From: Trypanosoma brucei
Taxonomy: Eukaryota
Assembly (NCBI GenBank): GCA_000002445.1
Contig: CH464491.1
Coordinates: forward strand, 5,088,001 to 5,152,000
Reading direction: 5' to 3'
Length of the DNA: 64,000 nucleotides
In this document: positions 40,352-43,300 of the stretch, one piece after another
Position numbering within the stretch: position 1 is the stretch's first letter
Layout of the letters: each line of letters begins with the position of its first letter
Position numbers: made by a program

Positions 40352-43300
40352 CTAACCAATATACATTAAAGAAACAAAAAATCAAATTTCATAATTTCAT
40401 TCATATTTCAAACCCTATCACCATACTAATTTGCAACAAAACCTACTATCATGCATATTTTACAAAATTTCATTTTTTAAATATTCCTCATACATTCACT
40501 AATTTGTGTATTTTTACAAATAGGGAAATTTCATAAAATTTCATAAGTTTCATAAAATTGAGCAAATATTATTAAAATACTAAAATGTCATCAAACTCCT
40601 AATGGAATAAGAAATCAGAGAAAAATTCTTATTGAAAGGGAAAATGGAATCCTTGCATTTGTTTCCTTCCTACTTACAATCCGGAGCCTTGCAATCTTTC
40701 TCTCCTTTCCCTTTGCATTTATCTGTTGCTGTTTCTGCCCCTCCTGTTTGAGTTTGTGGCAACGAAACTCCACTTTTTTCCGCTTTTGTCGCATTATATT
40801 TGCACTTTTTGGTGCCATCGCTTTCTATTTCATAACTACATTTCGGATCAGCATTGCACTTTTGTTCACTATTTAGTTTGTTACAAGCTTGTTCTGCACT
40901 TTCACTAAGTTCTTTGTGCTCATTGAGTCGTTCCGCTGCCGCGGTCCCATCAGGCAGAGCAATGCCTATGACTGCTGCATTGCGTAAGCTGGTGGCCTGC
41001 TCTTTCAGAGTTGCTAGCTCGGCATTGATTTTCCCCGCTTCGGCGTATGCAATTGCTGCTCGTCTTAAAATCGCGGCCGCCACTTCCAGGTGGTTGACCC
41101 ATGGAATGCCGTTGCCGCCGTTTTGTAATTGCAGTTTGTAGTTTACGCACTGTGCGTTCGATGATCCCTGGCATCCGGTACTTTGAGCCTCGCCGAGGAC
41201 AAATCTGACGGCTGCATTGCTGTGGCTGCTTGGTAAACTGCCGATGTGCGAGAAAAACGTCGCTAGTTTTGCTTGGATGAGGGCTTCTGATAGCTCTTGC
41301 TTCGCTTCTTTCTTGGTGCATGCTGTTTCGAGGGCTGCTGCTGCGGTGTCGGCTCCGGTGGTGTCGGCTGTCACTGTTCCCATGCCTTTTTCGCCGCATG
41401 CTTTGTCGGTGTCGGTTGCGTCCGCAGTGCAAAGGCAGATCATGTCATTTAGTATGCTGTAACCGACGTTATTGTGGCCGCTGTGGCCGTTGCCGCACAT
41501 GTTTTCTTTTGTGCTATTGAAAGTTGCAGCTTCGAATTTGTCCTTGCCTTCGCCGTATATCGTGTCGAGGATCTTCCTTTCTGCTCTCGCTGCCGCCGTT
41601 GATACTTCTTTGCTGGCGGCTTCGAAGGCTGCTTTTTTGGTTTGTGCTATGTTATACAAGTCGTGAATCTGTCTGTTCGCCAGGGCTTTGTATGCATTGT
41701 TGGCTATCTTGGCGTACGGGCCCAGCTTTCCCGGTGCCGCACCCTGCTCCGTCGCCTCTTTGACTCGTTTAACCCAGTTTGCTAATTTGGTAGCACGCTC
41801 GCTGCCGTCTGAGACTCCTGCGAATTCTCCGTCTTTGTGTTCTAACCACGTATCACTTGCGGTACTGATGTTCAGATTGTAAATGGCAGTTATTAAATCA
41901 TCTGCGTTATCAAACTGCCTTGTCCATAGTGTCTGTGGTTTAGCATGCTTAAGATTGTAAATGTCACACAAAGTTGCGTACGCCGGTGCGTTTACGCCGT
42001 TCGAAGTTGCGGCTTCTGCTAAATTCGACAAGACTAGCGACAACACTGCTATGGTTAATTGGTGCCTTGAACACCTTGAGATCTGTGGCATTGCGCAGTT
42101 TTGAATCTTTCTTTTAAACTTGCAGCTTGACTGCCTTGCCTTTGAAGCACAGTGAAATTGGAATAAGACACGACTGACTCCCGTTGGAGGCTGTGTGCGT
42201 TTAAACAACTCACTTTTGTTAATAATGAAAATCAGGAATTCTCTGTTTCCAATGACTGTATTCACACTTTCTTGTGGCTTTCTCTCTATTTTTCAGGTAC
42301 GAACAGAGCACCTTTTACAGTATATTGCTACAAAAAAAATTATACCTTACGCTCACTTTTTCAACGTATTAAAAAAATGTTGTTAGTGGCTTTGCCGTTT
42401 TCAACCTTTGACTTTACACTAGAAATTCATTATTCCAAGTAAGATTTTTCATAATCAGTCTTGCTTTCTCTTCCCATGCAATTGGCTGACCAAAAGAAAA
42501 TGAATGAATGGGGCTTCTCCAAACTCTCCACTAGTTGGAATAGAAAAAAACTCTTATCATAATCCAATCCAATCATTCCTCTCTTCAAAACAAATCTCTG
42601 TCCAACAGCTTCTTCCTCAATCACACTCCAAATTAGTAAAGTTTTGAAAATACTCTCGCTATTAAGCTACCACTTTTACTAAGAAAAGTTTTTCCACTAG
42701 GATGTGATTTTAATAAATGAGGTAGCTTCTTCTCTTTCCCTTTTTTATAATAAAGATCAAAAACAGTAGCATTTCTCTATATCCTCTTTATGAATATCCT
42801 CTTCTCTAAACTTGTCTTTATTTCAGCAGTATTTTGTATAAAATATTGTACAGACTTTTCATATTTATGACGATCACAAACAATACCATCAGCTCCGTCA
42901 ACAGTTATTACAATATCCTCATCAATTGAATTATGTCTTTCTAAAAATTCCAAAATTCACTTAGGTATTTTAACTTAGCTATACAAACTTCTTATCGAAA
43001 TTGTAATAATTTTAACATGGCTTAGTTTGGCACTCAAAATGAGTTTACGCTATCCTTGAATTGCATGAGTTTGAATTACAGAAACAGATACTCCTCCTTT
43101 CTTATACATATCATGTGTTATATTTTTTATATTTTCTGTTGTGTTCTTTTGAGGAGTTACAGAGCTTGAATACACTAAATGTAGTAGTAGCGGTAACAGT
43201 AAATTTCTCAACGTACGGAATTTTAATATCCAATTTTTCTTAAATTTTTTGAGAGAGTAATAAGGGAAAACTTAAAAAACATTAGGAAAATAGGAGATTC

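What the first reader, a model, noticed from the sequence alone, without database searches (positions are those of the whole stretch)
40660..40680. Second independent VSG with TAG replacing Trp in the CKW motif
VSG 40670..42091 ends …KDCKAPDCK-TAG-EGNKCKDSIFPFNKNF…. This is the same codon position and the same G-to-A transition as in the VSG at 18050, but the genes are unrelated in their N-domains. Recurrence at a CpG-free TGG in the most conserved C-terminal motif suggests recurrent decay at that codon, or tolerance for it.
Basis: seen in the sequence. Interest (0 to 1): 0.55.

Follow-up and report, generated by a model that had tools for sequence, protein, structure and literature searches.

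The report
Two VSG pseudogenes, same stop codon
Two silent trypanosome coat-protein genes are each cut short by a TAG where a conserved tryptophan codon should be, but this is ordinary decay of the dispensable 3' end of archived VSG genes, at the codon most easily turned into a stop.

Summary
The window is a Trypanosoma brucei brucei TREU927 subtelomeric VSG array. Two VSGs (ORFs 42091..40670 and 19522..18050, minus strand) have open reading frames of 473 and 490 codons. Each ends at a TAG that replaces the invariant Trp (TGG) of the last C-terminal structured region, just before the fourth cysteine and the GPI signal.

The two events look independent. The N-domains are unrelated, only 5 bases around the TAG are identical, and each C-terminal domain (CTD) has many closer relatives that keep Trp.

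There is no hotspot beyond what the genetic code predicts. TGG is the only codon with two transition routes to a stop. With kappa about 2.2 it should take 8% of nonsense hits in the whole CTD, 15.5% in columns 51-105 and 23% in the last 38 columns. Observed: 3 of 19 independent ORF ends (16%) with the two window genes, or 1 of 16 without them. Other ends are scattered, often at Cys codons.

Both genes carry further 3' lesions while their N-domains stay open. This fits the published "3' donation" route, in which damaged CTDs are replaced on expression. This is known biology and of low interest.

The parts
40670..42091 (-). VSG gene A (TREU927 XP_829788.1, 'VSG, putative', 473 aa): signal peptide, B-type N-terminal domain, CTD structured region S1 and a truncated S2. 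The ORF ends at the TAG.
   Evidence: ORF list. Pfam VSG_B E=1.7e-66 and Trypan_glycop_C E=5.5e-7. 100% identical to P0001. CTD matches ILTat1.24 S2 (2JWH, E=5e-18) and S1 (2JWG).
40670..40672 (-). TAG stop in place of the invariant Trp (TGG) of the C-K-W motif in S2, gene A. Context: TGT AAG TAG GAA GGA.
   Evidence: Codon table. Trp is invariant in A1 and in all 8 nearest CTD relatives.
40583..40669 (-). Decayed post-stop remnant of gene A: the rest of S2 plus the GPI signal (EGNKCKDSIFPFNKNFSLISYSIRSLMTF). No recognisable VSG 3'UTR 16-mer follows it.
   Evidence: It scores 26.5 bits against a profile of 38 intact tails (minimum 38.7, median 61.2). There is no match to TGATATATTTTAACAC with 3 or fewer mismatches between 40300 and 40670.
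18050..19522 (-). VSG gene B: 490-codon ORF with a non-B N-terminal domain, CTD S1 and a truncated S2, ending at the TAG.
   Evidence: ORF list. No VSG_B match. Only the CTD is similar to gene A. The protein was not found by exact look-up.
18050..18052 (-). TAG stop in place of the Trp codon of C-K-W in S2, gene B. Context: TGC AAA TAG GAT GGA.
   Evidence: The nearest CTD relatives (P0104, P0022 and others) all have Trp.
17961..18049 (-). Post-stop remnant of gene B. DGKECKDSSILVNK is followed by a 1-nt deletion in the A-run at 18006..18010, which shifts the GPI signal out of frame. With the frame restored it reads KFALMVSEFTMIEVF*.
   Evidence: Sequence. The restored tail scores 53.1 bits, within the range of intact tails; as it stands it scores 32.8 bits, below all 38. 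The 3'UTR 16-mer at 17893..17908 has 3 mismatches.
49947..51398 (-). Comparison case in the same window: a VSG with an intact B-type N-domain whose S2 carries three stops. These are TGA at the Cys codon (49949..49947), TGA at a Gly codon (49925..49923) and TAG at a Glu codon (49919..49917). Its Trp TGG (49931..49929) is intact.

Best explanation
These are two archival (silent, subtelomeric-array) T. brucei VSG genes whose 3' ends are decaying while their N-terminal domains are kept open. In each, an independent G-to-A transition turned the single conserved Trp codon of the last CTD structured region (TGG) into TAG. The product is cut off before the fourth cysteine and the GPI-anchor signal, so neither gene can make a coat protein as it stands. 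The coincidence of position follows from the genetic code. TGG is the only sense codon that becomes a stop by either of two transitions, so it is the most nonsense-prone codon in the CTD. The stops persist because the 3' end of an archived VSG is dispensable. When such a gene is copied into an expression site, the downstream recombination boundary usually lies inside or upstream of the CTD ('3' donation'). The N-domain is then expressed with the resident, intact CTD, GPI signal and 3'UTR. Shown here: the stops, their independence, the extra 3' lesions, the open N-domains, and the lack of excess at the Trp column. Inferred from the literature, not tested for these two genes: their rescue by 3' donation.
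For: (1) Identity and context. Gene A is 100% identical to a TREU927 'VSG, putative' on a 5.26-Mb contig. About 15 VSG genes or pseudogenes lie on one strand of the window, with VSG 3'UTR 16-mers far above chance (12 matches against 1.4 expected).

(2) Independence. Only 5 nt (TAGGA) are identical around the two stops. CTD identity between A and B is 44% over the 32 residues before the stop, whereas each has 8 or more closer relatives that all carry Trp. The N-domains are unrelated.

(3) No excess at the Trp column. ts/tv is 1.11 (kappa about 2.2) from 177 substitutions between gene A and its T. equiperdum orthologue. The expected Trp-column share of nonsense is 8% for the whole CTD, 15.5% for columns 51-105 and 23% for columns 68-105. 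Observed: 3/19 independent in-frame ORF ends, or 1/16 excluding the window genes (P0093 = EATRO1125 VSG 1125.1097). The binomial P values are unremarkable.

(4) General 3' decay. Gene A's post-stop tail scores below all 38 intact tails and its 16-mer is lost. Gene B also has a 1-nt deletion in the GPI signal and a 3-mismatch 16-mer. VSG 49947..51398 has three other stops in S2.

(5) Selection on the N-domain. 177 random substitutions would leave the ORF open in only 0.17% of simulations (mean 6.2 stops), yet both orthologues are open through the N-domain.

(6) Mechanism in the literature. [quoted passage not shown] The 3' end of identity between expressed and genomic VSGs lay within the CTD in 18/22 cases (PMC1934917).
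Against: The sample behind the 'no excess' conclusion is small: about 19 independent events. It comes from protein ORF ends, not DNA. It is somewhat biased towards late truncations, because the search profile covered the 78 positions upstream of Trp. A 2-fold excess could not be excluded. With the whole-CTD expectation (8%), 2 of 3 in one window has P=0.018. Independence rests on parsimony, not on a dated phylogeny. Expression of these two N-domains by 3' donation was not shown. The T. equiperdum orthologue has an assembly gap exactly at the site, so the age of the TAG is unknown.
Confidence: 0.85

Rival explanations
1. There is a true mutational or selective nonsense hotspot: the CKW Trp codon is hit, or retained as a stop, more often than its intrinsic mutability predicts. 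Possible causes are a context-dependent G-to-A process or selection to disable array CTDs.
For: Two of three CTD-first stops in this window are at this codon, both as TAG rather than TGA. A third case, P0093, exists in strain EATRO1125. A<->G changes outnumber C<->T changes 64 to 29 on the coding strand between orthologues.
Against: Outside the discovery pair only 1 of 16 independent ORF ends lies at this column, against 15.5% expected. Stops in the neighbouring VSG 49947 are all transversions at other codons. The other roughly 13 CTD Trp codons in the window are intact TGG.
Confidence: 0.08
2. The TAG has a shared ancestry: it arose once in a CTD and spread to the second gene by duplication or gene conversion among silent copies, so the recurrence is not independent.
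For: CTDs are exchanged between VSGs independently of N-domains. Both genes lie 22 kb apart in the same array and carry the same CTD architecture.
Against: The bases immediately flanking TAGGA differ on both sides. There are 7 differences in the surrounding 42 nt. The CTDs are only 44% identical over the preceding 32 residues, while many Trp-bearing CTDs are closer to each of them.
Confidence: 0.05
3. The TAG is not a functional stop: it is a sequencing or assembly error, or it is read through or recoded so that a full VSG is made.
For: Gene A is annotated as a protein-coding 'VSG, putative' rather than a pseudogene.
Against: Two separate loci show it. Both also have further disabling lesions downstream: a decayed or frameshifted GPI signal and degenerate 3'UTR 16-mers. 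Read-through would therefore still not give an anchorable VSG. From general knowledge, no stop-codon reassignment is known in T. brucei.
Confidence: 0.02

Closest known systems
T. brucei archival VSG pseudogenes and 'atypical' VSGs of the subtelomeric arrays (Berriman et al. 2005 classification, as quoted in PMC1934917; VSGdb, PMC1868767)
   Same: They lie in a tandem array of VSGs on one strand. The N-domain is full length. The ORF is disabled by an in-frame stop, a frameshift or a non-canonical GPI signal. Such genes are the majority class of the archive: about 62% are disrupted ORFs and only 4.5-7% are intact.
   Different: Nothing material. The only particular feature is that both first stops fall on the same conserved Trp codon.
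'3' donation' segmental gene conversion (Hall, Wang & Barry 2013, PMC3708902)
   Same: It explains why lesions confined to the CTD, GPI signal and 3'UTR are tolerated while the N-domain ORF is preserved. It was described in the same strain, TREU927.
   Different: Use of these two particular genes as N-domain donors was not examined here.
ILTat 1.24 VSG C-terminal structured regions S1 and S2 (PDB 2JWG, 2JWH)
   Same: Gene A's CTD aligns to S2 over 47 residues at E=5e-18, including C-K-W-E-G-x-C-K-D, and to S1 at E=6e-5. The stop replaces the Trp of S2. I infer, without testing it, that this Trp is the 'conserved aromatic residue' shown in the figure legend of PMC12226131.
   Different: In the window genes S2 is cut before its fourth cysteine, and the GPI signal is lost or decayed.

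Membership tests
T. brucei VSG gene | N-terminal VSG domain (type A or B) | tested here: met
   Gene A matches Pfam VSG_B at E=1.7e-66. Gene B has no Pfam N-domain hit, but it has a signal-peptide-like start, VSG length and a VSG CTD. Its type A assignment is inferred, not tested.
T. brucei VSG gene | C-terminal domain with four-cysteine structured region(s) | tested here: met
   Gene A matches Trypan_glycop_C and aligns to 2JWG and 2JWH. Gene B's CTD aligns with the family. In both, S2 is interrupted after its third cysteine.
Functional (expressible as is) VSG | Uninterrupted ORF through a canonical GPI-anchor signal | tested here: not met
   A TAG lies before the GPI signal in both genes. 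The tail of gene A scores below all 38 intact tails, and the tail of gene B is frameshifted.
Functional (expressible as is) VSG | Conserved 3'UTR 16-mer TGATATATTTTAACAC | tested here: not met
   Gene A has no match with 3 or fewer mismatches. Gene B has 3 mismatches. The three intact VSGs in the window have 0-1 mismatch.
VSG pseudogene / atypical VSG of the silent archive | VSG homology plus an in-frame stop, a frameshift or a non-maturable C-terminus, in a subtelomeric array | tested here: met
   The definitions are in PMC1868767 and PMC1934917.
Nonsense-mutation hotspot at the CKW Trp codon | Independent stops at this column in excess of the codon's intrinsic mutability | tested here: not met
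   Observed 3/19 (1/16 without the discovery pair) against 15.5% expected for columns 51-105 at kappa 2.2. The sample is small, so this is a weak test.
N-domain donor rescued by 3' donation | The N-domain is found in expressed VSG mRNAs joined to a CTD from another gene | not testable with these tools
   This needs VSG-seq or cDNA data from TREU927 infections. There is indirect support only: the N-domain ORF is conserved against a simulated P(no stop) of 0.0017.

The most novel reading that the evidence does not exclude
The Trp-to-TAG change is not neutral decay but a recurrently selected 'CTD-off' state. It would force an archived N-domain to be expressed only with the expression-site CTD, or it would reflect a directed G-to-A mutational process acting on the silent archive. 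In either case, stops at this codon would be enriched genome-wide.
Probability: 0.04. Interest if true: 0.5.

Novelty: already known. Interest (0 to 1): 0.1.

Why it matters
As found, it matters little. It is a textbook example of how the VSG archive is organised: N-domains are conserved as antigen donors and 3' ends are disposable. The one transferable point is methodological. Coincident stops at a conserved Trp codon in decaying genes should first be compared with the codon's own mutability before a hotspot is proposed. Here TGG is expected to take about 15-23% of nonsense hits in the terminal CTD subdomain.

Tried and rejected
(1) Exact look-ups of gene A, gene B and the intact VSG 45798..47378 in the gene-position index found nothing. 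I could therefore not fetch TREU927 DNA beyond the window, or the same array in other strains.

(2) The T. equiperdum orthologue of gene A (L001, 88.9% nt identity) has a run of N exactly over the CKW codon and a different 3' end after it. The ancestral state could not be read.

(3) Two of the three word-index protein searches returned few useful hits. The CTD-only profile gave only 7 short proteins. The 45-sequence full-length profile gave the same set as the first search. The census therefore rests on the 89 representatives from the exhaustive HMMER search.

(4) Pfam did not recognise the non-B N-domains, even at E up to 10. Gene B's N-domain type therefore remains inferred.

(5) Marcello & Barry 2007 and Cross et al. 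2014 are not held in the paper library.

(6) I rejected a shared conversion tract (only 5 identical nt) and read-through (further downstream lesions).

Full report
WHAT IS THERE

The window is a subtelomeric VSG array of Trypanosoma brucei brucei TREU927. The protein of the ORF 42091..40670 (minus strand) is 100% identical to XP_829788.1 / EAN80676.1, 'variant surface glycoprotein (VSG), putative', 473 aa, on a 5.26-Mb contig. About fifteen VSG genes or pseudogenes lie on the minus strand. The conserved VSG 3'UTR 16-mer is found 12 times against 1.4 expected. An ingi-like retroelement lies on the plus strand.

THE OBSERVATION

Gene A reads ...GAT TGT AAG TAG GAA GGA AAC AAA TGC AAG GAT..., that is ...DCK*EGNKCKD. 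The TAG is at 40672..40670. Gene B (ORF 19522..18050) reads ...GAT TGC AAA TAG GAT GGA AAA GAA TGC AAG GAT..., that is ...DCK*DGKECKD. The TAG is at 18052..18050.

- In every intact relative this column is Trp. It is invariant in alignment A1.
- It is W in the eight nearest CTD relatives of each gene.
- It is W in the solved ILTat1.24 S2 structure 2JWH, to which gene A's CTD aligns at E=5e-18.

Both stops are therefore single G-to-A transitions from TGG. Gene A has a B-type N-domain (Pfam VSG_B, E=1.7e-66). Gene B has no VSG_B match, and BLASTP between the two finds only the CTD.

INDEPENDENCE

CTDs move between VSGs, so unrelated N-domains alone do not prove independent events. Three further points do support independence.

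- The bases flanking TAGGA differ on both sides (AAG/AAA before, GAA/GAT after). Seven of the surrounding 42 nt differ.
- Over the 32 residues before the stop the two CTDs are only 44% identical.
- Each CTD has at least eight closer relatives (up to 78% identity for A and 53% for B), all with Trp.

A third ORF that ends at exactly ...SPDCK was found in strain EATRO1125 (P0093, VSG 1125.1097). It also has closer Trp-bearing relatives. Independent origin is the parsimonious reading.

IS THE CODON A HOTSPOT?

TGG is the only sense codon with two transition routes to a stop.

Transition bias. I estimated it from gene A and its T. equiperdum orthologue: 177 substitutions in 1412 aligned nt, ts/tv 1.11, kappa about 2.2.

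Expected share. I used codon usage from the window's VSG ORFs and 24 intact reference CTDs. The Trp column should then receive the following shares of nonsense mutations:
- 8% in the whole 105-column CTD;
- 15.5% in columns 51-105;
- 23% in the last 38 columns.

Empirical distribution. I searched 1.84 billion representative proteins with a profile that stops just before the Trp column, so that truncated and complete CTDs score alike. This gave 89 hits. I then located where each ORF ends relative to a CTD HMM. In-frame ends are scattered:
- at Gly columns 51 and 52;
- around columns 65-66;
- at Cys 68 (P0050);
- at column 72 (P0060);
- at Cys 73 (P0098);
- at Trp 75 (P0093);
- at column 79 (P0046);
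- at Cys 80 (the P0013/15/16 lineage, confirmed at DNA level in L002, and P0078);
- at several positions in the GPI signal.

Counting related proteins once, there are 16 events outside this window, and 1 of them is at Trp. Adding the three window genes whose first stop is in the CTD gives 3 of 19 (16%). Neither figure departs from 15.5%.

Within the window, the chance that at least 2 of 3 such stops hit the Trp codon is 0.065 to 0.14. It is 0.018 if the whole-CTD share is used. That is before allowing for the pattern having been picked out post hoc. I conclude there is no evidence for a hotspot beyond the codon's own mutability. The caveat is that the sample is small and drawn from proteins.

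WHY THE STOPS PERSIST

Both genes show several lesions confined to the last 35 or so codons and the 3'UTR, while 470-490 upstream codons are open.

- Gene A's post-stop tail (EGNKCKDSIFPFNKNFSLISYSIRSLMTF) scores 26.5 bits against a profile of 38 intact tails (minimum 38.7, median 61.2). No 16-mer is recognisable downstream.
- Gene B has a 1-nt deletion in the A-run at 18006..18010 that frameshifts the GPI signal, and a 16-mer with three mismatches.
- A third VSG in the window (49947..51398) has an intact B-type N-domain. Its S2 carries TGA at a Cys codon, TGA at a Gly codon and TAG at a Glu codon, with its TGG intact.
- The three intact VSGs in the window keep 16-mers with 0-1 mismatch.

By contrast, the N-domain appears to be under selection against nonsense. 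In simulations, 177 random substitutions at kappa 2.2 leave gene A's ORF open in only 0.17% of trials, with a mean of 6.2 stops. Yet both the TREU927 and the T. equiperdum copies are open through the N-domain.

This asymmetry is what the published mechanism predicts. In TREU927 infections, '3' donation' was seen in 57% of unique expressed VSG sequences. [quoted passage not shown] The 3' end of identity between expressed and genomic VSGs fell inside the CTD in 18 of 22 cases (PMC1934917). Only about 4.5-7% of archive VSGs are intact. As they stand, neither gene can yield a GPI-anchored protein. Rescue of these two particular N-domains was not tested.

COMPARISON AND VERDICT

These are ordinary members of the known class of archival VSG pseudogenes and atypical VSGs. 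They have a two-region CTD of the ILTat1.24 kind (PMC12226131). The 'recurrent decay at that codon' half is true only in the trivial sense that TGG is the most nonsense-prone codon. Rival readings get little support: a true hotspot, a shared TAG spread by conversion, or an error or read-through. Novelty: already known. Interest: low.

LIMITS

- No TREU927 DNA outside the window could be fetched.
- The T. equiperdum orthologue has an assembly gap at the codon.
- Two protein searches added little.
It is specified under next steps.

Noticed in passing
window 49917-49949 (minus strand), VSG 49947..51398: This VSG has an intact B-type N-domain, but its last CTD subdomain carries three separate stops: TGA at a Cys codon, TGA at a Gly codon and TAG at a Glu codon. 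All three are transversions. Its CKW Trp codon is intact. It is a clear in-window control for general decay of the 3' end.
   Followed up: yes
database ORF ends (P0050, P0098, P0013/15/16, P0078; L002 5272-5300) and window 49947-49949: ORF ends at CTD cysteine codons (TGC/TGT to TGA) are numerically frequent. They make up 5 of 19 events against about 14% expected (binomial P=0.12). This is not significant, but it would be worth including in any genome-wide per-column count.
   Followed up: partly
window 54860-58394 (+): A long ORF with reverse transcriptase and RNase H domains is followed by a zinc-finger-like ORF. This is an ingi-type non-LTR retroelement inserted in the array, on the strand opposite to the VSGs.
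   Followed up: partly
window 47543-48592 and 62222-63334 (minus strand): Two copies of the same pair of ORFs (about 150-180 aa each, no Pfam match) lie immediately upstream of the two intact VSGs 45798..47378 and 60490..62010. These two VSGs also share a nearly identical first CTD subdomain (…TNQTC.KANCKWEEK.GKGECKSKPG…). This suggests a segmental duplication of a gene-plus-VSG unit.
   Followed up: no
window 40193-40349; also 17700-17722: A perfect (ATT)52 / (TAA)n triplet tract lies just downstream of gene A, and a shorter one lies downstream of gene B. They are probably the TAA-rich part of the repeats that separate array VSGs.
   Followed up: partly
window-wide; 16-mer sites listed: The VSG 3'UTR 16-mer TGATATATTTTAACAC tracks gene integrity. 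The three intact VSGs have 0-1 mismatch (8062, 45720, 60415). Gene B has 3 mismatches, and gene A has no match.
   Followed up: yes
L001 2200-2330 versus window 40580-40700: The T. equiperdum orthologue of gene A diverges completely after an assembly gap in S2. It then shows a normal-looking GPI signal (…KKLALMAADFVSLLEF*). The 3' end seems to have been replaced in one lineage, which is consistent with CTD exchange within the archive.
   Followed up: partly
gene A versus L001, 1412 aligned nt: On the coding strand, A<->G substitutions (64) are about twice as common as C<->T substitutions (29). This may simply reflect the purine-rich coding strand. I did not normalise for base composition.
   Followed up: no
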